DNA of 64,000 nt from Candidatus Nomurabacteria bacterium (GTDB taxonomy: Bacteria; Patescibacteriota; Patescibacteriia; HK-STAS-PATE-3): the NCBI GenBank assembly GCA_023898465.1, contig CP060223.1:256001-320000 (forward strand). Reading direction: 5' to 3'. Of the stretch, positions 14,570-63,807 are shown in pieces (positions within the stretch are counted from its first letter, which is position 1; each line of letters opens with the position of its first letter). A model generated the notes under the pieces. The model was not told the DNA's origin and made no database searches. It worked only from the letters and a program-made list of their open reading frames with translations. The position numbers and the translations under genes are program-made.

Positions 14570-14894
14570 TACTTGACAACCCACTTCACAGGAGTACACT
14601 AAATGCACAATTGGTGGCGATCTCTGCCTGGCACTGACCAGGATGTCTGGAGACGCCATGTTTTTGTATAGGCGTATTCCACCCTCCCTTGCCGTGGCGT
14701 TGGGGAGCGCGGAATAGTTCCGGGCTTCATTTCCTCACATGAGGAAAGCGGCTTTGTTGCCGTTTTGCACTTTGAAATGCATGGAGGTTCGCCATGACTT
14801 GGCGTTTCCGACTCTTCCTGCTCATGGCCATCGCGTTGACCATGACACCCCTCGCTTTCATGACCGGCTGTCAGGAGCTGCCGACGGAGGGGGA
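14570..14894 (+). repeat. Copy B of the duplicated promoter + leader + lipoprotein signal-peptide module
   Basis: See copy A. The two copies are offset by 3597 nt at the 5' end. The first 33 codons (MTWRFRLFLLMAIALTMTPLAFMTGCQELPTEG) are identical at protein level. Confidence 0.9.
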
Positions 14895-15492
14895 GACTTC
14901 GGTGATCTCTGATGAGTTGCCGGATGCTTCACCCTCAGCTCAGTCAAGCCCGATGACTTGGCCCTCTTCGATCCAGGATTTCAAACTCCCTTATGATGGG
15001 ATCCGGGATGCATGCGGGGGTCAGATTTGGAAGGTTGTTTGCGGGTACGGATGTGGTTATCATCACAACACAAACTACATGGCCGCCGCGTACCATTCGA
15101 TTGATCTTGTACGGCAGGATGCGCCGACCACTCATAGCGCAGTACTCGCTCCGGCGCGTGGCATCGTTTCGTTTGTCGGATGGAGGAATGGGTACGGTTG
15201 GTGCGTGGAGATGGATCATCGAAACGGCTGGAAGTCGCTTGTGGCCCATCTCGAAACGGATCCTTGGGAATTCGTCCATACCTATGACGACCTGCGGCAG
15301 GGGACTTTCCTGGGCTATGCAGGGAACAGCGGAGCGAGTACGACACCCCACATTCACTTCTCGGTGTGGCGGAACAACGTCACTCATACGCTCGATGGCG
15401 TATCGTTGATCAACCCGCGTCTAAATGGGCGATACAATTCCGGCAATGATTATGTTGCGCCACCGACGGGAAATCCGAACCCGATTCCTTAA
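14794..15492 (+). CDS. Lipoprotein, M23 (LytM/lysostaphin-type) metallopeptidase
   Basis: The N-terminal 33 aa are the same as in the CHAP protein. GNSGASTTPHIHFSV matches the M23 HxH motif. An upstream YHSIDL stands where HxxxD is expected, with spacing one residue short. Confidence 0.8.
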   Translation: MTWRFRLFLLMAIALTMTPLAFMTGCQELPTEGETSVISDELPDASPSAQSSPMTWPSSIQDFKLPYDGIRDACGGQIWKVVCGYGCGYHHNTNYMAAAYHSIDLVRQDAPTTHSAVLAPARGIVSFVGWRNGYGWCVEMDHRNGWKSLVAHLETDPWEFVHTYDDLRQGTFLGYAGNSGASTTPHIHFSVWRNNVTHTLDGVSLINPRLNGRYNSGNDYVAPPTGNPNPIP

Positions 15493-15498
15493 CACGAT

Positions 15499-23021: not shown

Positions 23022-25785
23022 ATTGCTAATCCCACAAAATTTAGCACTTATTATATTGCTCTTCGGATATTTAAGTCTGATAATTCTTCTTTTGAGACGC
23101 GAGAACACAAGTAGTAGATTATTTGGTGCTACCGTTATTACTCTCTCTCTTTGGATATTATCAATTTTACTTTTAAATATCAGCTCCTCAAAAGAAGAAA
23201 TTTTATTCTTTTCGCGATCGTCATTTATCGGGCCAATTATTCTCATACCAACATTCCTTCTTTTTTCTTGGTATTTTCCGAAAAAAACTATACATCTAAG
23301 GAAAAGTATTATTATTGTCGTTTCTTTAACGGCATGCTTCTTTTTAATTGCGACGTTTACGCCGTATGTAATTCAAGATGTCACAATAAAAGTAGGTGAA
23401 GGAGTCAGTCTAACCTATCAACTTGGAACACTATATTTTTTCCAATTTATTTTTTTAGCATTCTCATTACTTTATTCTTTTTTTATTCTTTATAAAAAAT
23501 ATAAAAAATCAAAAGGCCTAGAAAAATTACAAATTAGATATCTTTTTCTTGGCACCGTTATTACTGCAGTATTGACCTTGAGTACTAACGTAATTTTACC
23601 AATTTTTAATTTTTCATCTCTTGCTGGATTTGGCCCTCTTAGTACTCTATTTCTCTTATTTTTTATTTCATATGCCATCATCCGCCACCGCCTCCTCGAC
23701 ATCCGTCTTGTTATCACGCGTTCCTTAATTTATTTTTTCCTTATCCTGTTCGTCGCAGGATCATTTACTGGAATTACCTTACTCGCAAAGTTATTATTTG
23801 AAGAATTTGTTGGTGAAATAACCGCTACAATACTTGTTTCTCTCATCATCGTTATTGGTTTCGAGCCATTGAAGCGATGGGTCTCTCGTTCTACTGACTC
23901 GGTTTTTTATAAGGCAAAAATTGACTACGCTGATGTGTTGCGGGAAATCAGCGAAATTATTAACCGTGAAATTGTCCTGGATCCGCTCGTCACCTCCATC
24001 AGCGCCACGCTTGAGAGTAGGCTCAAGCTCAAGCACGCGGGCATTGCATTGAAAAGCGCCAAGGGGGATTTTGTTGAATACATAAACCACGATCACTTTG
24101 ATCCCAAAACCTTTTCCAGCCGATCCGGTATGATCGGATTCTTACGTTTCACATCTCGTATCACCATTTTAGAATCGCTCGAGCGCAAAATTCAGGACAC
24201 GAGCGAAGGGGACGAATTAAAAGAGTTGAAGCGATCGCGCGAGGAAATGGAAACGAACCACATTGCCTTAGCTGCTCCGATTGTGGCGCAAGGCAAATTC
24301 AACGCAGTCCTCATCCTGGGGCCGAAACTTTCCGGTGATAGCTTCTCGACCGAAGAGTTGAAGATGATTGAAACGTTGACTCCGCAGATCGGATCAGCGA
24401 TTGAGAAATCCATGCTCTTCGAAGAGGTGAAGAACTTCTCCAGTCAATTAAAGGTGAAAGTTGATGAGGCGACAAAGGAGTTGAAAGAGCGCAATCGTTT
24501 CCTTGGCGCTTTGCAGGATATCACGAGCACCATTACGCACTCTCTTGATTACAAAAAAGTAGGACAGGACATTGTGGACGGAGTAGCCAAGAAGCTCGGT
24601 TACATCGGTGCCGTGCTCCTGCTCTATGATCCAAAGACTGGCCAGTCATGGGCTGAGGCAATTACGCAAACGCCGGTTACTCGCGCGGCAATGAAATTAC
24701 TGCCCAAGCCGGTGAACGAATACCATGGGCACGTGGATGAGAATTCCATGACCGACCAAGTTATTTTGACTGGTGAAATGCGCGAAAGTGATTCACTAGC
24801 TGAATTCTTAGCACCGGCCGTGCCTAAAGCTTTTTGTTTCGCCATGCAGAAGTTGATTCGCGCAAAGTATATTGTGGCAGTGCCAATCTATGCCGAGGGT
24901 GAAATTCTCGGTGCCTTGGTTTTTGTGCTCGGGAAGAAGAAAGAGGAGATCAGTAGTCAGGAGCGGGCTATGATGATCGCTTTAGGTGACCAGGCCGGAA
25001 TCGTGCTGCACAATATTAAACTCTTTGATCGCATCCAGGATACGAATAAGCAGTTGGAGCAGGCGAATGAACACTTGAAGCAGCTTGATCAAGCTAAGTC
25101 GGAATTCGTCTCCATTGCCTCGCACCAATTACGCACGCCGATGACTGGCATTATGGGCTATCTTTCCATGATGGTGCAGGGGGATTTCGGTAAAATGGAG
25201 CCGGAGCACACCAAACTGCTGACTGAATTGTTGAGTGAGAGTCAGCGCATGATTCGTCTCATCAACCTCTTCTTGAACGTCTCAAAGATTGAGTCAGGTA
25301 AGATGACGATTAACAAGCAGCCGACGCAGATTAAGGATCTCATTGACCAACAGATTAAGGATCAGAAAAAGCCAGCCGAGGATAAAGGATTGGTGCTGAA
25401 AGTGGAAGTTGATAAAGAGCTGCCGATAATTGAAGCTGACGGTGATAAGCTCATGAACGTGGTGCAGAACCTGATTGATAACGCTATCAAATATACAGAG
25501 CGGGGAAGCGTGACTGTTCGCGCCTTTCAGACCGATGGCCATATCCAGGTAGAAATTCAAGACACTGGCGTTGGTATTAAGCGCGAAGATGTGCATGAAC
25601 TCTTTGGTAAGTTTGTGCGCGGGTCTGGCATTGCGCAGATCAATCCTGATGGCTCCGGTCTCGGACTCTTTATTGCCAAGTCAATTGTGGAAATGCACGG
25701 CGGTAAGATTTGGGTAGAATCAGAAGGTGAAGGGAAAGGTACTAAATTCGCATTCACGATACCAATTACACAGCCGAAAAAATGA
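23014..25785 (+). CDS. Sensor histidine kinase: N-terminal 7TM module + GAF-like regions + HisKA + HATPase_c
   Basis: About 230 aa of 7TM region, then long soluble GAF-like regions. H-box FVSIASHQLRTPMT, N-box NLIDNAIKYT, G-boxes DTGVGI and GSGLGL. The ATG at 23014 overlaps the ThiF stop by 8 nt. Confidence 0.9.
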   Translation: MDKLLIPQNLALIILLFGYLSLIILLLRRENTSSRLFGATVITLSLWILSILLLNISSSKEEILFFSRSSFIGPIILIPTFLLFSWYFPKKTIHLRKSIIIVVSLTACFFLIATFTPYVIQDVTIKVGEGVSLTYQLGTLYFFQFIFLAFSLLYSFFILYKKYKKSKGLEKLQIRYLFLGTVITAVLTLSTNVILPIFNFSSLAGFGPLSTLFLLFFISYAIIRHRLLDIRLVITRSLIYFFLILFVAGSFTGITLLAKLLFEEFVGEITATILVSLIIVIGFEPLKRWVSRSTDSVFYKAKIDYADVLREISEIINREIVLDPLVTSISATLESRLKLKHAGIALKSAKGDFVEYINHDHFDPKTFSSRSGMIGFLRFTSRITILESLERKIQDTSEGDELKELKRSREEMETNHIALAAPIVAQGKFNAVLILGPKLSGDSFSTEELKMIETLTPQIGSAIEKSMLFEEVKNFSSQLKVKVDEATKELKERNRFLGALQDITSTITHSLDYKKVGQDIVDGVAKKLGYIGAVLLLYDPKTGQSWAEAITQTPVTRAAMKLLPKPVNEYHGHVDENSMTDQVILTGEMRESDSLAEFLAPAVPKAFCFAMQKLIRAKYIVAVPIYAEGEILGALVFVLGKKKEEISSQERAMMIALGDQAGIVLHNIKLFDRIQDTNKQLEQANEHLKQLDQAKSEFVSIASHQLRTPMTGIMGYLSMMVQGDFGKMEPEHTKLLTELLSESQRMIRLINLFLNVSKIESGKMTINKQPTQIKDLIDQQIKDQKKPAEDKGLVLKVEVDKELPIIEADGDKLMNVVQNLIDNAIKYTERGSVTVRAFQTDGHIQVEIQDTGVGIKREDVHELFGKFVRGSGIAQINPDGSGLGLFIAKSIVEMHGGKIWVESEGEGKGTKFAFTIPITQPKK

Positions 25786-26216
25786 AACAGGTAAGGGGGA
25801 AACAACCAAAACGCATCCTACTTGTCGAGGACGAGCCGCTCTTAGCAACGATGTATATGTTGGCGTTGCAGCAACGAGTAAAGGCTGAGGTGTACGGGGC
25901 TAAGACACGCGAAGAAGCGGAGCGCATTATTGAGCGTGTGAAGCCGGATTTAGTGCTGCTTGATCTCATGATTCCCTCGATTACCATCCAAGACACGGAG
26001 CAGGATTTTCATCATCCAGTAGGGCTGCAATTCTTAGCCCAAATTCGGAAGAGTCCAAAGACGCGTTCAATCAAGGTAATGATTCTCTCCAACCTTGATG
26101 CGGATGAGCAACGCAAGCGGGCCATTGATTTAGGTGCCGAGGATTACCTATTAAAAGCCAGTCTGCAGCCGCACGCGATTGTGGAAAAGGTAAAGCATAG
26201 TTTAGGGATAAAATAA
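25782..26216 (+). CDS. Stand-alone response-regulator receiver (CheY-like) protein
   Basis: ILLVEDEP, DLVLLDLMIP and a lysine in ..LLKAS. There is no output domain. ATGA overlap with the kinase stop. Confidence 0.85.
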   Translation: MKQVRGKQPKRILLVEDEPLLATMYMLALQQRVKAEVYGAKTREEAERIIERVKPDLVLLDLMIPSITIQDTEQDFHHPVGLQFLAQIRKSPKTRSIKVMILSNLDADEQRKRAIDLGAEDYLLKASLQPHAIVEKVKHSLGIK

Positions 26217-26333: not shown

Positions 26334-26531
26334 ATGTCGATTGCGTTTACTCCCACTGAGCTTATTCTCCTCGGAGGATTTCTCGTCTGGATCATGGCCC
26401 AAATCTATGCTCCAATGAAAGGTCGCCGCAAAGCTGTCAGCTTCGGCGCCATCGAGATTGTCTTCCTGCTCGTGGGTCTCGCGGTATTGCTCCTCGGAGC
26501 AATCACCCTTGCACAGAATCCTGCCTTCTAG
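26334..26531 (+). CDS. Small two-TM membrane protein, hypothetical
   Basis: 65 aa from an ATG with GGGAGG 5 nt upstream. Preceded by TTGACA-N16-TATACT (26236-26263). The ORF track start at 26256 is less likely. Confidence 0.5.
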   Translation: MSIAFTPTELILLGGFLVWIMAQIYAPMKGRRKAVSFGAIEIVFLLVGLAVLLLGAITLAQNPAF

Positions 26532-26547
26532 GCGGGATTCTTTTTTT
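26516..26547 (+). terminator. Rho-independent terminator
   Basis: GAATCCTGCC / GGCGGGATTC stem followed by TTTTTTT. Confidence 0.7.
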
Positions 26548-26568
26548 AAAAGATGCTAGAGTATAGCT

Positions 26569-27003
26569 ATGAAAAATATTTTTCCAAAAGGGGTCGAGGT
26601 AGTAGCGGGGGTAATAATATTCCATAAAGGGAAGATTCTGATTGCACGCTCACCGAAGTGGTCAGATAAATGGACATTGCCGGGCGGCCATATTGATCCC
26701 GGAGAAACAATTGCAGAGGCGGCTATGCGAGAAGCGGAAGAAGAGACGGGCTTAAAGGTTCATCCACTTGGTTTTGTGAAAGCAGGTGAACTTATTTATT
26801 CAAAGGATTTTCACCGGCCTGCGCATTTTCTCTATTTTGATTATGCTGTTGAAGCAGATGATGGTAATGCAACACTTGATAAGCGCGAATTAACGGAAAT
26901 GCAATGGTGTTCTCCAAAAGAAGCGCTCCAGATGGACTTAGCAGAAAGTTTTTCTGAATCAATCCAAGCTTTTTTAGAAAAGTTTCCGCAATACGCCGGG
27001 TAG
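26569..27003 (+). CDS. NUDIX hydrolase
   Basis: Nudix box GGHIDPGETIAEAAMREAEEETGL. Confidence 0.85.
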   Translation: MKNIFPKGVEVVAGVIIFHKGKILIARSPKWSDKWTLPGGHIDPGETIAEAAMREAEEETGLKVHPLGFVKAGELIYSKDFHRPAHFLYFDYAVEADDGNATLDKRELTEMQWCSPKEALQMDLAESFSESIQAFLEKFPQYAG

Positions 27004-52530: not shown

Positions 52531-52757
52531 TTTCATAGACAAGGCGTCCCGGCCTTGTCGTAGTTTTTTGTTATTCCATCCCGCCCTCACCGTGTTGTTA
52601 TAAGTAACTGCTCAAAGTACCACCTTTGAGCAGTAGTAGCGCTCCTCCCTGAACGTGGTAGTTCATGGAGTTGGGTAGTTCTTGCGTGAAGGTATGCGCT
52701 CTGCTACCATACGGGCGTTTTCACGTTCCTTAGGAGTGAATCAAGAGGAGGGAGCAC

Positions 52758-53081
52758 ATGTCCTGCACTTTTACCTTTCCCGTACCCAAGGGCGTCACGG
52801 AGTTTCGGATCACCACACCCAATTCTGAGAAACTGGCCGGCACCGGACCTCGCTGGGTGGAGGTCAAGGAAGGCTGGACCAGATCCTACAAGCCGATCGA
52901 GGGTGGGCCTGGTACCATCAGAGTGACCAAGGTTGGTCAGGTGCGAGGCGGACACCGTATGGTGACCGTCGAGCTGGTCGACATGACCGCCACCTACGAG
53001 GCGGTGCTGCACTGCAAGCCGGCACCGAGCCAGGCAGTGCAGGAGGCCAGACAGGAGGTCCCGGTCGCCCAAGCATCCTAG
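52758..53081 (+). CDS. Hypothetical protein in a GC-rich micro-island
   Basis: 107 aa. Shine-Dalgarno AGGAGGGAG upstream. A terminator-like hairpin (AACGGCC/GGCCGTT plus T-run) lies at about 53106-53140. Confidence 0.45.
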   Translation: MSCTFTFPVPKGVTEFRITTPNSEKLAGTGPRWVEVKEGWTRSYKPIEGGPGTIRVTKVGQVRGGHRMVTVELVDMTATYEAVLHCKPAPSQAVQEARQEVPVAQAS

Positions 53082-53199
53082 CTTCTCGACGCGCATAGTC
53101 CACAACGGCCTAGTATTGCACTGGGCCGTTTTCTTTTACGCGTTCATTGCAGCAGATTCGCGATTGTGGTATAATGCAAATAGATAAACACATACACAC

Positions 53200-53745
53200 A
53201 TGGGGGAAGCACAACAATTTGTCGCAAATATTGACTGGGCCACGCCTACTTGGGATTTATTCATCATCCTCTTCTTTGTGGTGGCTGGTTTGCTCTATGG
53301 TTTGAGTCTTGGTCGCGATCGCATTGTGGTTATCTTGGTGTCGATTTATATGGCTATGGCAGTGGCAACTACCGCGCCCTATATTGGCGAGTTAAATGCG
53401 CAAATCGGCATTCAGAATGTGTTTGTGTTCCAAATCTCCGCCTTCCTCGTTGCCTTTATTGCGCTTTTTCTGCTCTTGTCGCGCTCAGCCTTGCTCAAAA
53501 CAATTGCTGTTGGTGATGCGCAAGGCAGCTGGTGGCAGGTGCTGGTCTTCAGCATTCTCCATGTTGGCTTATTGGTGAGCATTACTTTGTCCTTTTTGCC
53601 GCCTGAAGCAGCTGAGGGTCTGTCACCACTCACACGTCAAATGTTTGCCTCCGAGGGCGCTCGCTTTGGCTGGATTATTGCGCCGATTATCTTAATGGTG
53701 CTCTTGCGCACGGATAACAAAAAGAAGTTTAAGTACGATATGTAG
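53200..53745 (+). CDS. Hypothetical 4-5 TM membrane protein (weak CvpA-like look)
   Basis: 181-aa hydrophobic ORF. Confidence 0.5.
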   Translation: MGEAQQFVANIDWATPTWDLFIILFFVVAGLLYGLSLGRDRIVVILVSIYMAMAVATTAPYIGELNAQIGIQNVFVFQISAFLVAFIALFLLLSRSALLKTIAVGDAQGSWWQVLVFSILHVGLLVSITLSFLPPEAAEGLSPLTRQMFASEGARFGWIIAPIILMVLLRTDNKKKFKYDM

Positions 53746-53829
53746 GAGAAATTCGAAATACTAATTTCGAAAATCAAAACAAATACTAAATCCGAATAAT
53801 ACAGAAGGAGGAATTGAGTCCCTAGAAAT

Positions 53830-55264: not shown

Positions 55265-56362
55265 TTAGACGTCGCGTACTCGGAATGACTTCCAGGCCAG
55301 TAAGAAGGACAGGAGAATCCAGCCACCCAGGATGCTGAACTCATAACCGAAGTCACTTATTGGGCTGCCATTTACTGCTACGCCACGTAAGACCTTGAGC
55401 AGTGAAGTGAGTGGCAAGAAGTCAACAATCCGTTCCACAGCTGGTGGTAACATGTCAGGCGAGAAAAAGACGCCAGACAAGAACATCATCGGCGTGGTGA
55501 AAGCATTAGACATTGCCTCAGCAGTATTCACTGTTTTTGCTTGTCCAGCCACAAAGAATCCGATGTTGAGGAAGACGATTGTGCCAATAAGTGTAACCAG
55601 AGTAAGCAGTAACAAGCTGCCGTGAATTTCGACACCAAAGACTAAGCGGGCCACGCTGAGAATTACCGTGATCTGCATTAAAGACAGCACGAGATAAGAT
55701 CCAACCTCAGCCACTAAGAAATTTCGTACCTTAATCGGCGTAGCTAATAAACGCTTGAGGATTTTTCGTTCACGATAGCGCGTAATGCCCACAGCAATAC
55801 CAATGATGGCCGAGAACATGATAGCCATGCCCAGGATGCCCGGGGTAAGGAAATCGAGGTATTTCACATCTTGACCCTGCACACCCTCGGTTGCCACGGT
55901 GAAAATAGGTTGGGCGCCCGCGATTTGCAGATTTACCTTATTTAAAAAGTCATTAAGCACGCTGACGATAATACCGCTCTGCTGATTTGTTTCATCCAGT
56001 ATAACGGTGAAGTTGAGCGGCTCAGTTACTTCATTTTGGGGGACTTGGCCATAGGCGTCTGGGATAACAATAATCCCATCGAGCTCACCATCTTTCATGC
56101 TTTGCACCGCCTCATCCTTATTCGTAATATCGGATTCAGTGAAAATTTCTAAGGAGAACATTTGCTCGCGCAGCATTTGAGAGGATTCAGTTTGTGCCTC
56201 ATCAATCACTGCAATATCAAAGGAGGCTGGAGCATCAAAATTAAATAAGCCAAAAATAACTAGGAAGAGCAGGGGAAAGACCAGCGACCAAAAGAGAGAC
56301 TGCCGGTCGCGAAACAGCATTTTGAGGTTGGAAAGGAAAAGCCTCCAGGTAGGGTTATTCAC
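55265..56362 (-). CDS. ABC-2 type transporter permease
   Basis: 365 aa: one N-terminal TM helix, a large external loop, then a C-terminal bundle of 5 TM helices. Overlaps the ATPase gene. Confidence 0.8.
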   Translation of the reverse strand: MNNPTWRLFLSNLKMLFRDRQSLFWSLVFPLLFLVIFGLFNFDAPASFDIAVIDEAQTESSQMLREQMFSLEIFTESDITNKDEAVQSMKDGELDGIIVIPDAYGQVPQNEVTEPLNFTVILDETNQQSGIIVSVLNDFLNKVNLQIAGAQPIFTVATEGVQGQDVKYLDFLTPGILGMAIMFSAIIGIAVGITRYRERKILKRLLATPIKVRNFLVAEVGSYLVLSLMQITVILSVARLVFGVEIHGSLLLLTLVTLIGTIVFLNIGFFVAGQAKTVNTAEAMSNAFTTPMMFLSGVFFSPDMLPPAVERIVDFLPLTSLLKVLRGVAVNGSPISDFGYEFSILGGWILLSFLLAWKSFRVRDV

Positions 56363-57296
56363 GGAGTTTGCTCCCGGTTAAGTGCAAGAAGACATCCTCC
56401 AAGGTTGCTCGAGTGACTTCAATATCTTCCAAGTGCATTTGATGCTGCTCAGCCCAACGGATGAGTGGAGGGAGTACGGCTGAGGCGTGAGTTATTTGTA
56501 ATCGGTATGAGTTTGGCTCACCGTTCATTTCAGCTTTGATGACACCTTCCATGTTAGTGAATTCACTCACTTCTACAGCCTGCGGTGTTTTAAAAGCAAG
56601 ATGGGCAGACGCGTCCAGCTGATCAATCAGTGCCTTAGGCGTATCCAAAGCTACAATCTTACCGTGATCTATGACGCCAATACGATCACAAAGCTCCTCA
56701 GCTTCTTCCATATAGTGGGTGGTGAGGACGACGGTCTTGCCTTGTTCCTTAATCTTGCGAATGAATTGCCACATATGCCGACGCGCCTGTGGGTCCAGAC
56801 CAGTGGTCGGCTCATCCAAGAATACAATCTCCGGATCATTCACTAGGCTAACGGCAATTGAGAAACGTTGCTGCTGACCGCCGGATAATTCCTTTACCAG
56901 TGCTTTTCGCTTTTCGTAGAGGTCAACAATCTTCAGTAGCTCCTCAGCATTTTTTTGCTTTGGGTAAAAAGTGCCAAACAGTTTCAAAATTTCTTCCAGT
57001 GACAGGTAATCGTAAAAAGATGATGACTGTAGTTGGATACCAATGCGTTGCTTTACTTTTTCTACCTCGTGATGAGAATCAAAGCCAAGCACCTTGGCTG
57101 AGCCTCGGGTGGGTACTTGCAGGCCTTCAATTATTTCCAGTGTGGTGGTTTTCCCGGCGCCATTAGGACCCAGGAAGCCAAAAATTTCACCTTGGGCCAC
57201 TTGGAAACTAATGCCGTCCACTGCAGTAAGTTTGCCTGAGCCTTTACCCGGGAGAGGAAATTCTTTGACTAGTTCTTGTACTTCGATGACAGACAT
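56355..57296 (-). CDS. ABC transporter ATP-binding protein
   Basis: Walker A GPNGAGKTT, signature LSGGQQQR, Walker B VFLDEP. The start is either the ATG at 57296 or the one at 57320. Confidence 0.9.
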   Translation of the reverse strand: MSVIEVQELVKEFPLPGKGSGKLTAVDGISFQVAQGEIFGFLGPNGAGKTTTLEIIEGLQVPTRGSAKVLGFDSHHEVEKVKQRIGIQLQSSSFYDYLSLEEILKLFGTFYPKQKNAEELLKIVDLYEKRKALVKELSGGQQQRFSIAVSLVNDPEIVFLDEPTTGLDPQARRHMWQFIRKIKEQGKTVVLTTHYMEEAEELCDRIGVIDHGKIVALDTPKALIDQLDASAHLAFKTPQAVEVSEFTNMEGVIKAEMNGEPNSYRLQITHASAVLPPLIRWAEQHQMHLEDIEVTRATLEDVFLHLTGSKLRE

Positions 57297-57409
57297 AAAG
57301 CAAAGGGGAGTGTAGTACATTCAAATGTGGGTGTAAAGGGAGCATTTGACATATTTTCATATTGTTTTATCCTTAGTCAGGATCTTTCGAAGAAATCAAT
57401 AGAGATGGC

Positions 57410-57818
57410 CTAACCCGCTCTTGGGGTTGAAGTCAACGTTGTTGCATTTCTCGGGTCCCTTTGGGACTCATGCAACCGATCGACAAACTGTTCTTCGGAA
57501 CAGGGGTCTGAGCCAAAACCAGTGTCGTGTACGTTGTACGACGTTGCGACTCTGGGGTTGTGGGGCATGCAGTAGAGTTCCGTACAGAAACTCATCGAGT
57601 AAGAAAATCGAGGGTTGAGAAGCCCCACGATCTCGACTAGCATGTACCCTGGACTTCGGTCCGCTGGGTGTTCGTCCCTTCGTGGTATATCGGCCTTCAT
57701 GGTCGAGCGCACATCCATGGCTAAACAATAGAAAGATCCTTTTGACCAGGACCTAGTCCTGTGCTCTCGAGGGGTGACACCACGTGTGCTCACCCCTCTC
57801 TTTCTTGCTTGTTTTCTG
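57410..57818 (+). ncRNA. Candidate structured RNA of unknown class ending in an intrinsic terminator
   Basis: Two UUCG-tetraloop hairpins on the plus strand (57488-57503 CTGTTC-TTCG-GAACAG; 57651-57662 GGAC-TTCG-GTCC). Nested helices (GTGGGGC 57560 / GCCCCAC 57622). A terminal 9-bp stem GAGGGGTGA/TCACCCCTC plus a T-rich tail. Only implausible ORFs overlap it. Confidence 0.35.
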
Positions 57819-57871
57819 CTTCTCGCCTAGACTGACCATAGCTCTTTTGTTTCGTCGATCGAGGAGGGACC

Positions 57872-58051
57872 ATGAGGTTGTTTCTTCTTTGTGTCACCAT
57901 CGTCGCCCTGCCAAGCATGTTTGGCTATGCGGTGCTATGGGCGAGTGCTCGAGGAGCAAAGGCCATCGAGGATGAGCTCCCTGACGACAGGGAAGGGCGG
58001 CGGGCAGCTCATTTGGCCAGATCGCTTGATCCACCTTTTCCTGACTACTAA
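57872..58051 (+). CDS. Unlisted 59-aa ORF, putative small membrane-anchored protein
   Basis: MRLFLLCVTIVALPSMFGYAVLWA... with GAGGAGGGA 2 nt upstream. A hairpin terminator (AGACGACT/AGTCGTCT plus TTTT) lies at about 58070-58098. It is below the 60-aa cutoff of the ORF track. Confidence 0.35.
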   Translation: MRLFLLCVTIVALPSMFGYAVLWASARGAKAIEDELPDDREGRRAAHLARSLDPPFPDY

Positions 58052-58147
58052 GTCAGGTGCATTCCATTGAGACGACTTTGCCCGGAGTCGTCTTTTCATA
58101 GCGTCTTTTCGAGAAAATTGCTATAGTGGAAGCTGAATTACGGGGGT

Positions 58148-59980
58148 ATGACGCAAAAATTTTCTTCATTAGAAAAAATAGCTGCCCAGCTTCGTTATGA
58201 TGTGCTCACCATGACGTCGCGGGCCGGATCAGGTCATCCATCATCTTGCTTATCCGCAGTCGAGATAATGACTGCTTTGTTTTTTGGAGGAGTATTTCAC
58301 GCTGATCTGACGAAGCCGGAGTATGCGAATAACGACCGACTTATTTTTTCAAAAGGTCATGCTGCTCCATTGCTCTATGCGCTCTACGCAAGTGCAGGTC
58401 AAGTAACGGAAAAAGAGCTGCTGAGTTTGCGTGCGTTCCAAAGTCCGCTGGAGGGGCACCCTAGTCGCGCTTTTCCTTACACTGAGGTGCCGACCGGATC
58501 GCTAGGACAAGGTTTATCCAATGGCATAGGTATGGCTGAGTACGCACACCGTCATCGTTTGTCGTATCACACCTATGTGCTTCTTGGTGACAGTGAAATG
58601 AGTGAAGGTTCAAACTGGGAGGCAATGGAGTATGCGGCCTCGCATAAGTTGAGTGCACTCGTGGCGCTTATTGACCTGAATGATTTAGGTCAAAGCATGC
58701 GCACTCTGCCACTCGCTAAGGCGGAACAATTAGCTGCTCGGATAAAGTCATTTGGATGGCAAGTCTATGTTGTTGATGGGCATACTATCCCACAACTCTT
58801 GTCCGTGTTGAGTAAGGCAAAAAAGAGTCTCCAAAAACCCGTAGCGATTATTGCTCGGACGGTAAAAGGGAAAGGCGTCTCTTTTATCGAGGGGCGTCAA
58901 GGCTGGCATGGAAAAGCGCTGAGCAATGAAGAGCTGGAAAAAGCTTTAAAAGAAATTCCGTATCCAAAAAATAGAGTGCGAGGAAAGCTAGCCCAGCCGC
59001 AGAAAAAATCCCTGCCAGAATCAACAGCACGTCCAGTGCCGAATTGCCAGTACCGTAAGAGCACTTCAGTTTCCACTCGACGGGCGGCTGCCCATGCACT
59101 TGTCCGATTGGCGCCAAAGTATCCGGAGCTGCTTGTCCTAGACACTGAGGTAGGAAACTCAACGCATACGGAAGACTTTGCCGAAGTGTATCCTGAGCGT
59201 TTTTTGCAGTGTGGCATAGCTGAACAAAATGCCGTTGGCATGGTTAATGGCTTAGCGCGTCGCGGCGCTTTACCAGTCTACGCTACCTTTAGCGCCTTTC
59301 TCACACGAGCCTTTGATCAGCTGCGCATGAATCAATACAGCGACACGCGTCAGGTGTATATTGGTACGCATTCGGGTGTTTCTATTGGCGCGGATGGTCC
59401 ATCGCAAATGGGTCTGCAGGACATTGCCATGTTTCGTTCGCTGGAAAAAAGCGTGGTGCTTTATCCATCTGATGCCTTTGCAGCTGAGCGCTTAGTTGAG
59501 GAGGCTATGAAGCAGAGCGGTATGGTCTATATCCGCGCGACCCGGCCTCGAGTACCTATACTGTACAGCGCAGGGACAAAGTTTATTGTCGGCGGCAGTC
59601 AGACTTTGCGTCAAAGTACAAATGATAAACTCACCATTCTCGCCGCTGGCATCACTGTGTTTGAGGCATTAAAAGCTGCTGATGCATTAGCTGGCAGGGG
59701 CGTTAAGGTGCGAGTGATCGACCTCTATAGTGTGAAGCCGCTTGATGTGTCAACCTTACGCAAGGCGGCTAAGCAAACGAAAGCCTTCATCGTTGTAGAG
59801 GATCATAACCCTGAGGGCGGTATTGCCGAAGCAGTGCGTAGTGCTTTTATCCAATGCCCAGTACCCATCTATAGCCTAGCGGTGCAAAAACGACCCAAGA
59901 GCGGAACGCCAGAAGAACTTTTAAAATATTGCAATATTGATGCCAGTGCCATACTTCGTAAAGCGCAGACACTCATATGA
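58148..59980 (+). CDS. tkt: Transketolase (single-chain)
   Basis: 610 aa with GHPSSCLS, SKGHAAP, GDSEMSEGSNWEA, and a C-terminal pyrimidine-binding region. Confidence 0.9.
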   Translation: MTQKFSSLEKIAAQLRYDVLTMTSRAGSGHPSSCLSAVEIMTALFFGGVFHADLTKPEYANNDRLIFSKGHAAPLLYALYASAGQVTEKELLSLRAFQSPLEGHPSRAFPYTEVPTGSLGQGLSNGIGMAEYAHRHRLSYHTYVLLGDSEMSEGSNWEAMEYAASHKLSALVALIDLNDLGQSMRTLPLAKAEQLAARIKSFGWQVYVVDGHTIPQLLSVLSKAKKSLQKPVAIIARTVKGKGVSFIEGRQGWHGKALSNEELEKALKEIPYPKNRVRGKLAQPQKKSLPESTARPVPNCQYRKSTSVSTRRAAAHALVRLAPKYPELLVLDTEVGNSTHTEDFAEVYPERFLQCGIAEQNAVGMVNGLARRGALPVYATFSAFLTRAFDQLRMNQYSDTRQVYIGTHSGVSIGADGPSQMGLQDIAMFRSLEKSVVLYPSDAFAAERLVEEAMKQSGMVYIRATRPRVPILYSAGTKFIVGGSQTLRQSTNDKLTILAAGITVFEALKAADALAGRGVKVRVIDLYSVKPLDVSTLRKAAKQTKAFIVVEDHNPEGGIAEAVRSAFIQCPVPIYSLAVQKRPKSGTPEELLKYCNIDASAILRKAQTLI

Positions 59981-60807
59981 ATATAGTTTTTGACATTGGT
60001 GGTACAAACATTCGCATTGCGCGAGTAAAAGGCACTCGCCTTGATCGAATTGAGAAATTTTCCACTCCCTCAAAGCCACAAGCTGCATTTACCTTGATGG
60101 TAAAGCACATTGATGCGCTTCGAGGTGAGGAAAAAGTCACACGGATTATCGGTGGCGTACCCGGGTCAGTGGATAGTACACGTCAACAGTTAGTCCGGGC
60201 AGCTAATTTAACGCAATGGAAAAAATTCGCCCTGGGAAAAAAACTTGCCCAGCATTATTCCGCTCGTGTACAACTTTATAATGATGCTGATCTCGCAGGA
60301 TTAGGTGAAGCATATTATGGCGCGGGAAAAGGCAAAGAAGTGTTTGCTTACCTTACCCTGAGCACCGGCATCGGCGGCACGAGAATCGTGAAAGGGAAAA
60401 TTGACCAGGCAAGTGGAACATTTGAACCTGGACACCACGTGATAGATGCTGCAACTGTCCTTCGGAAGGGCCCACGGTCAGAAGGCTATTGGGAAAAATT
60501 CGTTTCTGGTTCAGCTCTGCAGCGCCGCTTCCATAACCCAGCTGAAAAAATACATGATGCCAAAGTGTGGCAGGAATTTCATGCATATATTGCCCTGGGT
60601 TTGGTCAACGTCAGTATTTTTTGGTCACCGGAGGCCATAGTCTTAGGTGGCGCGCTTATGCAGAATACGCACGTTTCCATATCCCGTTTGCAAAAACTTT
60701 TACAAAAGTATTATTACATTTCCAGTCCTACACCCAAGCTCATCCGAGGCAAGTTAGGGGATAGAGCGGGCTTGTATGGCGCAATGAGTTTACTTCGTCA
60801 TATTTAA
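59977..60807 (+). CDS. ROK-family sugar kinase (glucokinase-like)
   Basis: FDIGGTNIRIA, NDADLAGLGE, and LSTGIGG. Confidence 0.75.
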   Translation: MNIVFDIGGTNIRIARVKGTRLDRIEKFSTPSKPQAAFTLMVKHIDALRGEEKVTRIIGGVPGSVDSTRQQLVRAANLTQWKKFALGKKLAQHYSARVQLYNDADLAGLGEAYYGAGKGKEVFAYLTLSTGIGGTRIVKGKIDQASGTFEPGHHVIDAATVLRKGPRSEGYWEKFVSGSALQRRFHNPAEKIHDAKVWQEFHAYIALGLVNVSIFWSPEAIVLGGALMQNTHVSISRLQKLLQKYYYISSPTPKLIRGKLGDRAGLYGAMSLLRHI

Positions 60808-60816
60808 GGAGCGTAT

Positions 60817-61251
60817 ATGCTTTATCTCGCATCCGACCACGGTGGATATCAACTCAAAGAGAAGTTAAAAAAACAATTAGGCAAGGCAAATATTTCTTTT
60901 GTCGACTTGGGTGCAAAAACAGTGAAGCCGGATGATGATTATCCCATCATTACCAAGCAGCTGGCCGAGGCGGTGGCAAAGTCCTCGAAGCATCAGGGCA
61001 TACTGGTCTGTCGATCTGGTACTGGGGTGTGCATTGCCGCGAATAAGATGAAAAAGATTCGAGCAGTGGCAGCGGGCGATGCGTGGACAGCCAGACGCGG
61101 CAAACGCGATGAAAATGCAAACGTGCTTTGTCTAGGATCTGAGCATCCTAATGCGGCCCAGAGCTGGAGCATTGTCCAGGCTTGGTTAAAGCAAGCATTT
61201 CGTAATAGCACTCGGGATAAGCGTCGCCTCATTCAGATAAGTACTTTGTAA
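60817..61251 (+). CDS. rpiB: Ribose-5-phosphate isomerase B
   Basis: ASDHGGYQLKEKL and GILVCRSGTGVCIAANK. Confidence 0.9.
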   Translation: MLYLASDHGGYQLKEKLKKQLGKANISFVDLGAKTVKPDDDYPIITKQLAEAVAKSSKHQGILVCRSGTGVCIAANKMKKIRAVAAGDAWTARRGKRDENANVLCLGSEHPNAAQSWSIVQAWLKQAFRNSTRDKRRLIQISTL

Positions 61252-61890
61252 ATGGCGAAGGTCCTGCTTACTCCATCAATTCTCACTGCCTCGATCGCGG
61301 TTGCGCAAAAGCAAGTAAAACTTTTTCATAGCTTTTGCCCTCGACTGCACTTGGATTTAATGGACGGCGTCTTTGTTGCGCAGCGATCATTCAGTCCGAA
61401 GCAGCTCATGAAGCTGCGTTTGCCGCGGCAGACAAGTGCGCATTTAATGGTGCATGATCCCAGCGAATGGATGAGCCAAGGGGTGCAGGCGGGGATTCGT
61501 AGTTTTATCTTACATACCAGCTCTGACTTCACTCCAGTCTTGTTACGCGAGTTGTCTGCGCAATATACATTGCGTCTGGCTGTCCGGCCGGGCGTTTCCT
61601 TGAGCGAGGTGAAGAAGCTGGCCAAGTATGCAAAAGGTCTACATGTGATGACAGTTGAGCCGGGCCGTCAGGGTGGACCCTTTTTGCCTGCTCAGATAAG
61701 CGTGCTGAGGCGTTTGCGTAAGCTTTATCCGCGCATGTCGATCAGCGTAGATGGACACATGAATGCTGATACCATACCACTCGCCGTTGAGGCAGGGGCA
61801 AACGAGATCATTTTAGGTTCAGTATTGACTCGGTCTCGTGAGCCAAAGAAAGTGTTTCACGCTTTGCAAAAAATAGCCCAGGCAGTTTAG
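61252..61890 (+). CDS. rpe: Ribulose-phosphate 3-epimerase (divergent)
   Basis: PSILTAS...HLDLMDG.F....F, HLMV, and the VDG.. pattern; 212 aa. Confidence 0.7.
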   Translation: MAKVLLTPSILTASIAVAQKQVKLFHSFCPRLHLDLMDGVFVAQRSFSPKQLMKLRLPRQTSAHLMVHDPSEWMSQGVQAGIRSFILHTSSDFTPVLLRELSAQYTLRLAVRPGVSLSEVKKLAKYAKGLHVMTVEPGRQGGPFLPAQISVLRRLRKLYPRMSISVDGHMNADTIPLAVEAGANEIILGSVLTRSREPKKVFHALQKIAQAV

Positions 61891-61932
61891 GAGATTGCGC
61901 CGCCGGCAGACTTCCAGTATAGTAGCCACTGT

Positions 61933-63807
61933 ATGAACGCCCAGTCTATTCGTAAGGAATTTCTAGAATATTTTGCGTCCAAAGGTCACGCGGTAGTGCC
62001 CTCATCTTCGCTCATACCAGATAATGATGCGTCAGTATTGCTGACCACGGCTGGAATGCAACAGTTTAAGCCATACTTCTTAGGGCAGCGTGATCCTAAA
62101 GAAGACTTTGGTGCGAATCGTCTTTGCTCGGTACAGAAGTGTTATCGCACGAGTGATATTGAGCCGGTCGGCGATGCCTCGCATCACACCTTTTTTGAAA
62201 TGCTGGGTAACTTCGCCATGCATGATTATTTTAAACCCGAAGCAATTGCTTTTGCCTGGGAGTTTCTGACCAAGAAAATGCACCTCCACAAGGATCGACT
62301 TTGGGCAACCTATTATGCCGGAGACGAGTTGGTGGGTGAGGATAGTGAGGCGGCAAAGCTATGGGAAGAGTATTTACCAAAAGAACGCATCCAGGGCTTT
62401 GGTCGCGATGCCAACTGGTGGGGTCCACCAGGTAATACCGGGTCTTGCGGTCCTTGCGCTGAGCTGCACTATGACATGACGGAAAAGGCCTGTGCCCTGG
62501 GAGAACAGTGTAAGCCAAACTGTGCCTGCGGTCGTTTCGTAGAGCTCTGGAATCTTGTGTTCACGGAGTACGAAAAAAATGAGAAAGGCGAATTCACTCC
62601 TTTGCCAACCAAGAATATTGATACCGGCATGGGTTTAGAGCGCCTGGCGACCGTTGTCCAAAAAAAGCAGAGCAACTACGAAACAGATTTATTTGCACCA
62701 ATTTTCGAGTTTCTAGAAAAAGACGAACACTTTGGTCAATTGGAATTTGCTTCAGAGAATTTGAAGCGCATGCGTATTGTGGCTGATCATATTCGAGGCG
62801 CGGTTTTCTTATTAGCTGATGGTGTGCGCTTTAGTAATAAGGATCGGGGATATGTGTTGCGTCGTGTGGTCCGTCGAGCAATTGATCAGTATGCATCGCT
62901 TGAACTTACTTTTGCCGGCATTGTTGAAACGATAGTGAGCATGTACGAAATGCCATATCCGTACTTGCGAGAGCATCAGTCAGAAATAGTGAGCTTGTTG
63001 GAAAAAGAGCTCGAAGGCTACCGTCGAGTATTAAAAGCTGATGTCACGGTGGTGTATAAGAAAGTGCAGAAGCAGCTTGGGTCGCAAGAGCTTGAAGAAA
63101 TGACAGAGCGGACACCGAGCGAACGGGACATAAGTGCTGAAGAAGCTTTTCGACTATTTACTAGCTACGGCTTTTCACCTGATCGATTAAAGAAAGAGGG
63201 CTATCGTTTTGATGAGGCAGCCTTCCAAGAGTTTCTCAAGCAGCATCAGGATGTTTCACGATCGCAGTCAGGGAAGGTGACTGGATTCCATGGAGGTTTA
63301 GCAGACACCAAGCCAAACACTGTGCGCGGGCATACTGCAACACACTTACTCCAAGCGGCTTTGCGTGAAGTGCTGGGGAATCATGTGGCACAAAAGGGAA
63401 GTAATATCACTACTGAACGCGTGCGTTTTGACTTCCTGCATCCTGATAAAATGACACCTGAGCAGATTCAGCAAGTTGAGCAGATTGTGAATGAAAAGAT
63501 CAAGGCGGATTTACCGGTCTATAAGAAGTGGTACACGGTAGCTGAAGCCAAAGAGATTGGCGCCTTAGGTTTATTTGAAGAGCGCTACGGCGATAAGGTG
63601 TCAGTATATTTAATGGGAAGTGAAGATCCGGCAAAAGTTTTTTCAAAAGAGTTTTGTGGAGGCCCTCACGTTGCGCACACCGGCTTAATCGGCAGCTTTA
63701 AAATAAGCAAGGAAGAATCTTCTAGTGCTGGGGTGCGCCGTATTAAAGCCTTGGTGGGGGAGAGTCTTGACCCTTCTTTGGCTGGAAAAGAAATCGAAAC
63801 GCTCTAA
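61933..63807 (+). CDS. alaS: Alanyl-tRNA synthetase, short form lacking the C-terminal C-Ala/DHHA1 region
   Basis: FFEMLGNF, WGPPGNTGSCGPCAELHYD, and the editing-domain motifs HTATHLL and CGGPHV. It ends at 624 aa. Confidence 0.9.
   Translation: MNAQSIRKEFLEYFASKGHAVVPSSSLIPDNDASVLLTTAGMQQFKPYFLGQRDPKEDFGANRLCSVQKCYRTSDIEPVGDASHHTFFEMLGNFAMHDYFKPEAIAFAWEFLTKKMHLHKDRLWATYYAGDELVGEDSEAAKLWEEYLPKERIQGFGRDANWWGPPGNTGSCGPCAELHYDMTEKACALGEQCKPNCACGRFVELWNLVFTEYEKNEKGEFTPLPTKNIDTGMGLERLATVVQKKQSNYETDLFAPIFEFLEKDEHFGQLEFASENLKRMRIVADHIRGAVFLLADGVRFSNKDRGYVLRRVVRRAIDQYASLELTFAGIVETIVSMYEMPYPYLREHQSEIVSLLEKELEGYRRVLKADVTVVYKKVQKQLGSQELEEMTERTPSERDISAEEAFRLFTSYGFSPDRLKKEGYRFDEAAFQEFLKQHQDVSRSQSGKVTGFHGGLADTKPNTVRGHTATHLLQAALREVLGNHVAQKGSNITTERVRFDFLHPDKMTPEQIQQVEQIVNEKIKADLPVYKKWYTVAEAKEIGALGLFEERYGDKVSVYLMGSEDPAKVFSKEFCGGPHVAHTGLIGSFKISKEESSSAGVRRIKALVGESLDPSLAGKEIETL

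What the first reader, a model, noticed from the sequence alone, without database searches (positions are those of the whole stretch)
57410..57818. Approximately 400-nt plus-strand structured element with two UUCG tetraloops and a terminal intrinsic terminator
Located between the ABC exporter promoter region and a small ORF upstream of tkt. On the plus strand I can draw these helices:
- GTTGCAT..GGGTCCC-ttt-GGGACTC-ATGCAAC at 57441-57477
- CTGTTC-UUCG-GAACAG at 57488-57503
- a long-range helix GTGGGGC (57560) / GCCCCAC (57622) enclosing GAGTT..AACTC
- ACCC-t-GGAC-UUCG-GUCC-gct-GGGU at 57646-57669
- CAGGAC-cta-GTCCTG at 57748-57762
- GAGGGGTGA-N12-TCACCCCTC followed by a T-rich tail at 57769-57818

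The UUCG loops and the terminator polarity both point to the plus strand. The ORFs on the track here (127, 86 and 65 aa on both strands) look like noise. I could not find the conserved cores of RNase P RNA (GGAAAGUCC / ACAGAA..GGCUUA), tmRNA (acceptor plus tag ORF) or SRP RNA.
Basis: seen in the sequence. Interest (0 to 1): 0.55.

Follow-up and report, generated by a model that had tools for sequence, protein, structure and literature searches.

The report
Orphan structured RNA candidate, CPR bacterium
An unannotated stretch of about 440 bases in a tiny-genome (Patescibacteria) bacterium has a promoter, an unusually well-defined multi-hairpin fold and a terminator, so it is probably a non-coding RNA gene of no known family, but no relatives could be retrieved to prove it.

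Summary
The element is larger than flagged. A sigma-70-like promoter (57346-57373) places the start near 57380. A perfect 10-bp helix (57379-57388 / 57731-57740) closes a six-branch core of about 360 nt. A small hairpin and an intrinsic terminator (57769-57818) follow.

Evidence for a plus-strand RNA:
- Folding z-score is -5.0, and the MFE is the lowest of 142 same-size windows.
- Ensemble diversity is 29, against about 110 for shuffles and about 100 for other genomic windows.
- The only two C(UUCG)G hairpins on the plus strand of the whole 64 kb both lie inside it.

The overlapping ORFs look spurious by codon usage, Pfam and a search of 1.8 billion proteins. Rfam 15 gives nothing even at E<=10, and ARAGORN finds no tmRNA. 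GenBank annotates nothing here.

No homologue was found by synteny with relatives, nhmmer, three covariance models, a metagenome scan, or phage and plasmid BLAST. Covariation therefore remains untested. A relative about 89% identical in the flanking genes exists in SRR17818317, but its copy of this region could not be fetched.

Verdict: a credible orphan candidate for a large structured ncRNA. Its function is unknown. A long leader of the downstream 59-aa ORF, or a non-functional rearrangement scar, remain real alternatives.

The parts
57346..57373 (+). Sigma-70-like promoter: -35 TTGACA (57346-57351), 16-nt spacer, -10 TATCCT (57368-57373). The predicted start is about 57380.
   Evidence: 10 of 12 matches; sequence.
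57309..57337 (-). Back-to-back divergent promoter-like site (TTTACA-17-TACACT) for the ABC exporter operon. The ATPase starts at 57296. This is context, not part of the RNA.
   Evidence: The 313-aa ATPase start matches USN53829.1.
57379..57388 (+). P1 5' strand, AGGAUCUUUC. It pairs with 57731-57740 and sits at the predicted 5' end of the transcript.
   Evidence: mean pair probability 0.98; I4 (10/10 complementary).
57391..57451 (+). Domain A: a long imperfect hairpin (AGAAAUCAAUAG.../...UUGUUGCAUUUCU) with a 7-nt apical loop.
   Evidence: helix probabilities 0.93-0.99. An alternative pairing of 57441-57447 with 57470-57476 exists.
57453..57469 (+). Hairpin B: GGGUCCC-UUU-GGGACUC.
   Evidence: probability 0.99.
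57472..57561 (+). Domain C: a three-way junction closed by GCAACC/GGUUGU. It contains the C(UUCG)G hairpin 57488-57503 and hairpin 57519-57555. The 10-nt junction strand is UGAGCCAAAA.
57562..57649 (+). Domain D: closed by GGGGCAUGCAGU/ACUAGCAUGUACCC. It contains hairpins 57575-57593 and 57596-57635. The competing helix is 57560-57566 / 57622-57628.
   Evidence: I14.
57651..57662 (+). Hairpin E: GGAC-UUCG-GUCC, the second C(UUCG)G tetraloop.
   Evidence: probability 1.00.
57663..57721 (+). Domain F: a branched hairpin (GGGUGU/ACAUCC, UCGGCC/GGUCGA).
57731..57740 (+). P1 3' strand, GAAAGAUCCU, preceded by the single-stranded UAAACAAUA (57722-57730).
57747..57761 (+). Hairpin G: CAGGAC-CUA-GUCCUG, between the core and the terminator.
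   Evidence: probability 0.99.
57769..57819 (+). Intrinsic terminator: a 12-bp GC-rich stem (GAGGGGUGACAC / GUG-C-UCACCCCUC, 57769-57798) followed by the U-rich tract UCUUUCUUGCUUGUUUUCU.
   Evidence: probability 1.00; I1 and I8; sequence. The simple scanner missed it because the stem has a bulge and its outer loop is 12 nt.
57872..58051 (+). Downstream neighbour: a 59-aa orphan ORF (H6760_01515). It has a GGAGG Shine-Dalgarno at 57863-57867, an N-terminal hydrophobic helix, and its own terminator at 58071-58098. It may be read through from the element.
   Evidence: only itself among 5.8 billion proteins; codon score -0.02, ambiguous; sequence.

Best explanation
The region 57379-57819 on the plus strand is most likely a free-standing gene for a structured non-coding RNA of about 430-440 nt that belongs to no described family.

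Proposed working:
- RNA polymerase starts at about 57380 from the TTGACA/TATCCT promoter, which sits back-to-back with the ABC-exporter promoter.
- The transcript folds into a compact core in which its very 5' end pairs with nt 57731-57740 (P1, 10 bp).
- P1 closes a junction from which six stem-loop domains (A-F) radiate. Two of them are capped by hyper-stable C(UUCG)G tetraloops.
- A short hairpin and a strong GC-rich terminator hairpin with a U-rich tail end the transcript.
- The paired 5' end and the 3' hairpins would protect it from exonucleases, as in other stable bacterial RNAs.

Shown by computation: the sequence signals, the thermodynamic exceptionality, the strand, the lack of coding potential, and the lack of membership in any Rfam family.

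Inferred only: that it is transcribed, that it is stable, and that it acts in trans. My guess for its role is a protein-binding or scaffold RNA rather than a metabolite-sensing switch. No terminator/antiterminator alternative stands out, and the fold is one dominant structure rather than a bistable one.
For: - Promoter with a perfect -35, ending 6 nt before P1.
- P1 is 10/10 bp, and nearly all helices have pair probability >=0.9.
- The z-score is -5.03 on the plus strand versus -2.73 on the minus strand.
- The MFE is the lowest of 142 equal-size windows.
- Ensemble diversity is 29 versus 114+-32 (shuffles, minimum 44) and 101+-23 (genomic, minimum 67). 79% of positions are determined at >0.9, versus 32% and 35%.
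- Both C(UUCG)G hairpins of the window's plus strand lie inside it.
- It has a strong terminator hairpin with a U-rich tail.
- No coding signal was found: Pfam, 1.84 billion proteins, codon log-odds of -0.10, -0.10 and -0.21 versus 0.23+-0.11 for genes.
- The gap between the ABC ATPase and tkt is about 850 nt in an otherwise tightly packed genome.
- GenBank annotates nothing between H6760_01510 and H6760_01515.
- Complementarity of the terminator arms with upstream sequence is no better than chance, p about 0.15-0.4. This argues against a riboswitch-type switch.
Against: - There is no comparative evidence at all. Relatives with an ABC ATPase 66-75% identical, or tkt 56-59% identical, have other genes at this position.
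- nhmmer, blastn and three covariance models hit nothing outside the window's own copy.
- The metagenome scan gave only two chance 20-mers.
- All other copies retrieved are 100% identical over the element.
- 120-nt sub-windows of the element are not individually exceptional apart from the terminator.
- One coding region in the window reaches a stronger z-score.
- The -10 hexamer is only 4 of 6, and the U-tract is interrupted by C and G.
- The junction lies at a genome rearrangement point relative to relatives, where non-functional DNA can accumulate.
- There are no expression data.
Confidence: 0.42

Rival explanations
1. It is a long structured 5' leader, a cis-regulator, of the 59-aa ORF and possibly of the tkt operon. 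The same promoter drives both. The terminator at 57769-57819 stops most transcripts, and a signal sensed by the structured core lets some read through into the ORF.
For: - The order promoter, structured domain, terminator, Shine-Dalgarno plus ORF is the classical attenuator layout.
- No convincing separate promoter lies between 57820 and 57870. My own reading finds only TTGCTT-17-TAGACT, 7 of 12.
- The terminator 5' arm UCGAGGGGUGAC resembles the Shine-Dalgarno region UCGAGGAGGGAC. An 11-nt complementarity also links 57477-57487 with 57851-57861, just before the Shine-Dalgarno (D1 and I5).
Against: - No antiterminator pairing exceeds chance. With the 3' arm removed, the 5' arm simply stays unpaired.
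- The ensemble is a single dominant fold, not bistable.
- 390 nt is far larger than any known leader for a 59-aa gene.
- No riboswitch, T-box or leader family matches.
- The ORF itself is an orphan with an ambiguous codon score.
- The short complementarities listed are of a kind expected by chance in 530 nt (one search lists 16 of them).
Confidence: 0.17
2. It is non-functional DNA: a scar left by the rearrangement that joined the ABC operon to the tkt operon in this lineage, or a decayed gene. Its hairpins and promoter- and terminator-like motifs would be fortuitous or vestigial.
For: - In five relatives the ABC operon faces infA and the ribosomal genes, a large NHL protein, or proC, not tkt.
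- tkt relatives have unrelated genes upstream.
- Both the element and the adjacent ORF are orphans.
- No covariation is available.
- Thermodynamic z-scores alone have a substantial false-positive rate. A coding window scored z=-7.
Against: - Several independent signals coincide: the promoter abuts a perfect 10-bp end-to-end helix, there are two C(UUCG)G loops, there is a terminator, and the structure is extremely well defined.
- No trace of protein homology exists in any frame tested.
- A 1.08-Mb reduced genome seldom keeps 0.8 kb of junk. This last point rests on general knowledge, not on a test here.
Confidence: 0.28
3. It is an extremely divergent member of a known housekeeping RNA family (RNase P RNA, tmRNA, SRP RNA or 6S RNA) that the models fail to recognise in this isolated CPR lineage.
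For: The size, a terminal helix joining the 5' and 3' ends, and the UUCG loops are reminiscent of RNase P RNA. CPR RNAs are often atypical (my own knowledge). Whether rnpB, ssrA or ffs are annotated elsewhere in this genome could not be checked.
Against: - No Rfam family matches, even at E<=10 with permissive filters on 371-901 nt.
- ARAGORN finds no tmRNA.
- The central junction has almost no unpaired strands to form a P4-like long-range helix, and no GGAAAGUCC or ACAGAA..GGCUUA cores are present.
- NCBI's pipeline annotated no RNA gene here.
Confidence: 0.05
4. It is a miniature inverted-repeat mobile element (MITE-like), and the 'P1' helix is really its terminal inverted repeats.
For: Perfect 10-bp inverted repeats lie 342 bp apart at the element's ends (I4). 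The element is lineage-specific.
Against: - There is no second copy in 64 kb, or in about 300 kb of relatives.
- There is no match in phage or plasmid collections.
- There is no perfect target-site duplication (TTAGTC versus TTTGAC).
- The interior folds as six separate hairpins rather than one long palindrome.
Confidence: 0.04
5. The region encodes a protein, namely the 127-aa minus-strand ORF 57410-57793 or one of the 65-aa or 86-aa ORFs.
For: ORFs of these lengths exist.
Against: - Pfam gives nothing meaningful.
- Only three hits, E 3e-7 to 2e-4, were found, to 641-1665-aa proteins with 6-11 repetitive stretches, and no orthologue, among 1.84 billion representatives.
- Codon scores fall within the spurious-ORF distribution.
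- Neither Logan's nor NCBI's gene callers called them.
- No Shine-Dalgarno precedes them.
Confidence: 0.02

Closest known systems
Large, lineage-restricted structured bacterial ncRNAs of unknown function (OLE, GOLLD, ROOL, HEARO, raiA, and the orphan motifs of Weinberg et al. 2010, PMC2864571, and 2017, PMC5737381)
   Same: It lies in an intergenic region, is several hundred nucleotides long, and has many GC-rich hairpins around multi-helix junctions. It has its own promoter and terminator, no obvious cis target, and a restricted phylogenetic range.
   Different: None of those covariance models matches. Those classes were defined by covariation across many representatives. This one has a single known sequence and no comparative support.
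Bacterial RNase P RNA (types A and B)
   Same: The size is 350-400 nt, the 5' and 3' ends pair in a terminal helix (P1), and there are UUCG-capped peripheral hairpins.
   Different: There is no P4 pseudoknot-like helix, no CR-I to CR-V sequences, no Rfam hit at E<=10, and the junction strands are too short for long-range pairing.
Riboswitch, T-box and attenuator leaders
   Same: The order is promoter, folded domain, intrinsic terminator, then Shine-Dalgarno and ORF on the same strand.
   Different: It is two to four times larger. No competing antiterminator exceeds chance, and the fold is a single dominant one. No family matches. The downstream gene is an orphan 59-aa ORF.
6S RNA and Ms1-type stable regulatory RNAs
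   Same: It would be a stable, end-paired, independently transcribed RNA that could act by binding a protein.
   Different: It has no long irregular rod with a central bubble. It has a six-branch architecture and no Rfam match.

Membership tests
Bacterial RNase P RNA (RF00010/RF00011) | Match to the family covariance model, including the P4 helix and the conserved CR-I (GGAAAGUCC) and CR-V (ACAGAA..GGCUUA) nucleotides | tested here: not met
   No hit at gathering score or at E<=10 on 901 nt and 371 nt. By eye there is no CR-I or CR-V and no free strands for P4.
Bacterial RNase P RNA (RF00010/RF00011) | Terminal helix P1 joining the 5' and 3' ends | tested here: met
   10/10-bp helix 57379-57388 / 57731-57740. 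This feature is not specific to the family.
tmRNA | tRNA-like acceptor and T-arm domain plus a tag-peptide reading frame | tested here: not met
   ARAGORN finds only two tRNAs in the window. There is no Rfam tmRNA hit.
SRP RNA / 6S RNA | Match to the family covariance model (helix 8 motif; rod with central bubble) | tested here: not met
   No Rfam hit at E<=10. The predicted architecture is a six-branch junction.
Known large ncRNAs (OLE, GOLLD, ROOL, HEARO, raiA and others in Rfam 15) | Match to the family covariance model | tested here: not met
   zero matches among 4227 families.
Riboswitch / T-box / transcription-attenuation leader | Mutually exclusive terminator and antiterminator structures | tested here: not met
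   The best upstream duplex with the terminator 5' arm is -15.8 kcal/mol, reached by 17% of shuffles and 14% of genomic segments. The 5' arm stays unpaired when the 3' arm is removed.
Riboswitch / T-box / transcription-attenuation leader | Same-strand gene immediately downstream of the terminator | tested here: met
   The 59-aa ORF 57872-58051 with a GGAGG Shine-Dalgarno lies 53 nt after the tail.
Stand-alone bacterial ncRNA gene (generic) | Own promoter and intrinsic terminator on one strand, and no coding potential | tested here: met
   Promoter; terminator; no coding signal.
Stand-alone bacterial ncRNA gene (generic) | Evolutionary conservation with compensatory base changes | not testable with these tools
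   No homologue was retrievable. The ~89%-identical relative in SRR17818317 is only reachable through exact protein look-ups, and the contigs obtained stop short of the element.
Stand-alone bacterial ncRNA gene (generic) | Detectable transcript of the predicted size and strand | not testable with these tools
MITE / small mobile repeat | Terminal inverted repeats, target-site duplication and multiple genomic copies | tested here: not met
   A 10-bp inverted repeat is present. There is no perfect flanking duplication and no second copy in the window or fetched loci. The rest of the 1.08-Mb genome was not searchable.

The most novel reading that the evidence does not exclude
This is the first representative of a new class of large structured non-coding RNA (core of about 360 nt) confined to a little-sampled Patescibacteria (CPR) lineage. 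It would be comparable in rank to OLE, ROOL or GOLLD, and kept in a 1.08-Mb reduced genome because it does something essential or host-interaction-related.
Probability: 0.3. Interest if true: 0.65.

Novelty: new variant of a known kind. Interest (0 to 1): 0.4.

Why it matters
Large structured RNAs of unknown function are rare in bacteria. Each one characterised so far (RNase P, tmRNA, 6S, OLE, ROOL and GOLLD assemblies) has revealed unexpected biochemistry. None is known to be specific to the Candidate Phyla Radiation, whose genomes are so reduced that about 0.8 kb of retained non-coding DNA calls for an explanation.

If real, this element would be a tractable entry point into RNA-based functions of episymbiotic ultra-small bacteria. 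If it is a rearrangement scar, it is a useful caution that single-sequence thermodynamic signals can look very convincing.

Tried and rejected
1. Known RNA families. Rfam 15 was run at gathering score on the whole window, and at E<=10 on 57250-58150 and 57375-57745. Nothing matched. ARAGORN found no tmRNA.

2. Protein coding.
- Pfam was run on the 127-, 86-, 65- and 59-aa ORFs.
- HMMER was run with the 127-aa ORF against 1.84 billion proteins. It gave three weak hits to long repetitive proteins.
- Codon log-odds fell in the spurious range.

3. Synteny-based homologues.
- tkt relatives came from GTDB genomes (L006, L007, Kerfeldbacteria, 56-57%) and from Logan and JGI.
- ABC-ATPase relatives of 66-75% identity were also fetched.
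- None has a comparable intergenic region next to either gene.
- The 59-aa ORF has no homologue at all.

4. Sequence and structure searches of everything fetched. I ran blastn and nhmmer and three single-sequence covariance models, R1-R3. Only the window itself hit.

5. Metagenome scan with the 20-mer GGGGTCTGAGCCAAAACCAG from the domain C junction. It returned two unrelated contigs, which are chance matches. In hindsight a 20-nt exact pattern could only have found near-identical strains.

6. Phage and plasmid BLAST in distant mode: no match.

7. Riboswitch-type antiterminator: not above chance.

8. A close relative found through 90% protein clusters (SRR17818317).
- It is 82-83% identical over dnaJ and the 181-aa gene, and 89% identical over ROK to rpe.
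- Its contigs end 106 nt upstream of ROK and about 3.6 kb to the left of the element, so the RNA region was not reached.

9. Literature search for CPR-specific structured RNAs or atypical RNase P RNA in Patescibacteria: nothing relevant.

10. The 120-nt sliding z-score scan was too noisy, and cut helices too often, to be informative for this element.

Full report
**Where the window comes from**

The transketolase encoded at 58148-59980 is 100% identical to a GenBank protein of a 'Candidatus Nomurabacteria bacterium' MAG. Its contig is 1,082,586 bp long, so it is a Patescibacteria/CPR genome. The nearest GTDB relatives by tkt are Kerfeldbacteria, at 56-57% identity.

Copies of the locus in four other assemblies are identical across the element. 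The only difference is one SNP, at 57341 in L004, which lies outside the RNA.

GenBank locus tags run H6760_01500 (88-aa protein), 01505 (permease), 01510 (ATPase) and 01515 (59-aa ORF). Protein accessions run USN53829 (ATPase) to USN53831 (tkt). So nothing, neither gene, pseudogene nor RNA, is annotated between the ABC ATPase and the 59-aa ORF.

**Observation**

A perfect 10-bp helix joins AGGAUCUUUC (57379-57388) to GAAAGAUCCU (57731-57740).

Its 5' strand begins 6 nt after a sigma-70-like promoter, TTGACA-16 nt-TATCCT, at 57346-57373. That promoter stands back-to-back with a minus-strand promoter-like site for the ABC operon, at 57337-57309.

With this boundary, the minimum-energy fold of -170.2 kcal/mol is a closed core with six branches:
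- domain A, 57391-57451
- hairpin B, 57453-57469
- three-way domain C, 57472-57561, with the first C(UUCG)G loop
- domain D, 57562-57649
- hairpin E, 57651-57662, with the second C(UUCG)G loop
- domain F, 57663-57721

After the core come hairpin G (57747-57761) and a 12-bp terminator stem (57769-57798) with the tail UCUUUCUUGCUUGUUUUCU.

Nearly every helix has a pair probability of at least 0.9. They were part of the optimum for the shorter interval.

**Is it more than chance?**

- The plus-strand z-score is -5.03 (100 dinucleotide shuffles, none as good). The minus strand gives -2.73.
- Among 142 equal-size windows tiled over the 64 kb on both strands, the element has the lowest free energy: -168 against a mean of -121 and an sd of 23. 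It ranks fourth by z-score. The top-ranked window turned out to be a small membrane-protein gene with a terminator, which shows that z-score alone is not specific.
- More telling is how well defined the fold is. Ensemble diversity is 29, against 114+-32 for shuffles (minimum 44) and 101+-23 for 40 other genomic windows (minimum 67). 79% of positions are fixed at probability >0.9, against 32% and 35%.
- The only two UUCG hairpins with perfect stems of at least 4 bp on the plus strand of the whole window are the two in this element. About one per strand per 64 kb is expected. By my own Poisson estimate, two falling within 445 nt has a probability of order 3e-5 per window.
- Short 120-nt sub-windows are not individually remarkable, apart from the terminator.

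**Not coding**

- The 127-, 86- and 65-aa ORFs have no meaningful Pfam match.
- Their codon log-odds are -0.10, -0.10 and -0.21. That is typical of spurious ORFs (-0.07+-0.11) and far from genes (0.23+-0.11).
- No gene caller called them.
- The 127-aa ORF finds only three weak hits, to 641-1665-aa proteins with 6-11 repeated stretches, among 1.84 billion representatives.

**Not a known RNA**

Rfam 15 (4227 families) gives no match at the curated thresholds. It also gives none at E<=10 with permissive filters on 901-nt and 371-nt slices. ARAGORN finds no tmRNA.

The junction strands of the predicted core are 0-2 nt long, except for a 9-nt 3' strand. This leaves no room for an RNase-P-like P4 helix, and the CR-I and CR-V sequences are absent.

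**Search for relatives**

This is where the case stays open.

- tkt relatives (56-59% identity) and ABC-ATPase relatives (66-75%) were fetched with their flanks. This gave about 300 kb of sequence in L006, L007 and L019-L033.
- In them the ABC operon faces infA and the ribosomal-protein cluster, an NHL-repeat gene, or proC. tkt is preceded by unrelated genes. So the ABC/tkt junction is specific to this lineage.
- blastn, nhmmer and three covariance models built from domains A+B, C and D-F found only the window's own copy.
- The neighbouring 59-aa ORF has no homologue among 5.8 billion proteins.
- A metagenome scan with a 20-mer from the domain C junction returned two unrelated contigs.
- Phage and plasmid collections gave nothing.
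- Through 90%-identity protein clusters I did find a close relative in run SRR17818317. It is 83% and 81% identical over dnaJ and the 181-aa gene, and 89% identical and colinear over ROK, rpiB, rpe and the next gene.

**Free-standing RNA or leader?**

The layout also fits an attenuator. The terminator is followed after 53 nt by a 59-aa ORF with a GGAGG Shine-Dalgarno, and I see no good separate promoter for it.

Four points argue against a switch:
- The best pairing between the terminator's 5' arm and upstream sequence (-15.8 kcal/mol) is matched by 14-17% of controls.
- Removing the 3' arm does not create an alternative structure.
- The ensemble is dominated by one fold.
- A 390-nt sensor for an orphan 59-aa gene would be unprecedented.

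I therefore favour a free-standing stable RNA, with some read-through possible.

A MITE is unlikely. There is a single copy and no target-site duplication, and the interior is not one long palindrome.

A non-functional rearrangement scar cannot be excluded. It is my second choice.

**Verdict**

It is best described as an orphan candidate for a large structured ncRNA in a CPR bacterium. It belongs to no described family, but it is of a known general kind.

Confidences:
- about 0.6 that it is a functional RNA element of some sort
- 0.42 for the free-standing version
- 0.17 for the leader version

Interest is moderate, at 0.4. It would rise to about 0.65 if the relative's copy shows compensatory changes or a transcript is seen.

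Noticed in passing
window 57872-58051 (+), Shine-Dalgarno 57863-57867, terminator 58071-58098: A 59-aa orphan ORF (H6760_01515) with a strong Shine-Dalgarno, an N-terminal hydrophobic helix, a charged tail and its own terminator. It has no homologue among 5.8 billion proteins, and its codon score (-0.02) lies between genes and spurious ORFs. No clear promoter of its own was found. It could be a small membrane protein expressed by read-through from the element.
   Followed up: partly
window 26334-26531 (+), with terminator about 26532-26565: The strongest 445-nt folding z-score in the window (-7.05) falls in the gap between ORFs 25782..26216 and 26569..27003. The gap holds a 65-aa two-helix hydrophobic ORF (MSIAFTPTELILLGGFLVWIM...) followed by a canonical terminator. 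This is a small membrane-protein gene rather than an RNA.
   Followed up: partly
L032 4725-4880 (minus strand): In a relative with an ATPase 66% identical, the 393-nt gap divergent from the ABC ATPase has a promoter (TTGACA-17-TACGAT) and a strong terminator about 120 nt apart on the strand opposite the ABC operon. The fold z-score for the whole gap is -4.55. It shows no sequence similarity to the window element, but the position is analogous: a divergent small transcription unit.
   Followed up: partly
L036 and L037 (Logan, SRR17818317) versus window 51442-53759 and 59871-63248: A sister species exists. It is 83% and 81% identical over dnaJ and the 181-aa gene, and 89% identical with no gaps over ROK, rpiB, rpe and the next gene. 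It lacks the ~460-nt segment 52684-53145 that holds the 107-aa orphan ORF H6760_01485. This is the best source for a covariation test.
   Followed up: partly
window 57595, 57608, 57703, 57767, 57859: The pentamer UCGAG occurs 5 times in 490 nt, against 0.5 expected (p about 1.5e-4 before correction for 374 k-mers). Three copies extend to (A/C)UCGAGGNNNGA, in domain D, in the terminator 5' arm and in the Shine-Dalgarno region of the small ORF. This could be a repeated binding motif or a by-product of CGAG/CUCG stems.
   Followed up: partly
window 58148-59980 versus 56358-57296: The transketolase has no relative above 59% identity in 5.8 billion proteins. The neighbouring ABC ATPase has relatives at 66-75%. 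The gene order around the junction also differs from all relatives. The tkt-ROK-rpiB-rpe block may have a different history from the ABC operon.
   Followed up: no
window 57341: The only difference among five independent assemblies of this locus is G>A at 57341 in L004 (SRR14234116). It lies 5 nt upstream of the -35 hexamer. The RNA itself is invariant.
   Followed up: no
window 15496-15538 (+): A perfect 19-bp hairpin (GCGGAGAAGGUUUUUC...GAAAGCCUUCUCCGC region) lies right after ORF 14794..15492. It gave the top 120-nt z-score (-7.07). It is probably an ordinary strong terminator.
   Followed up: partly
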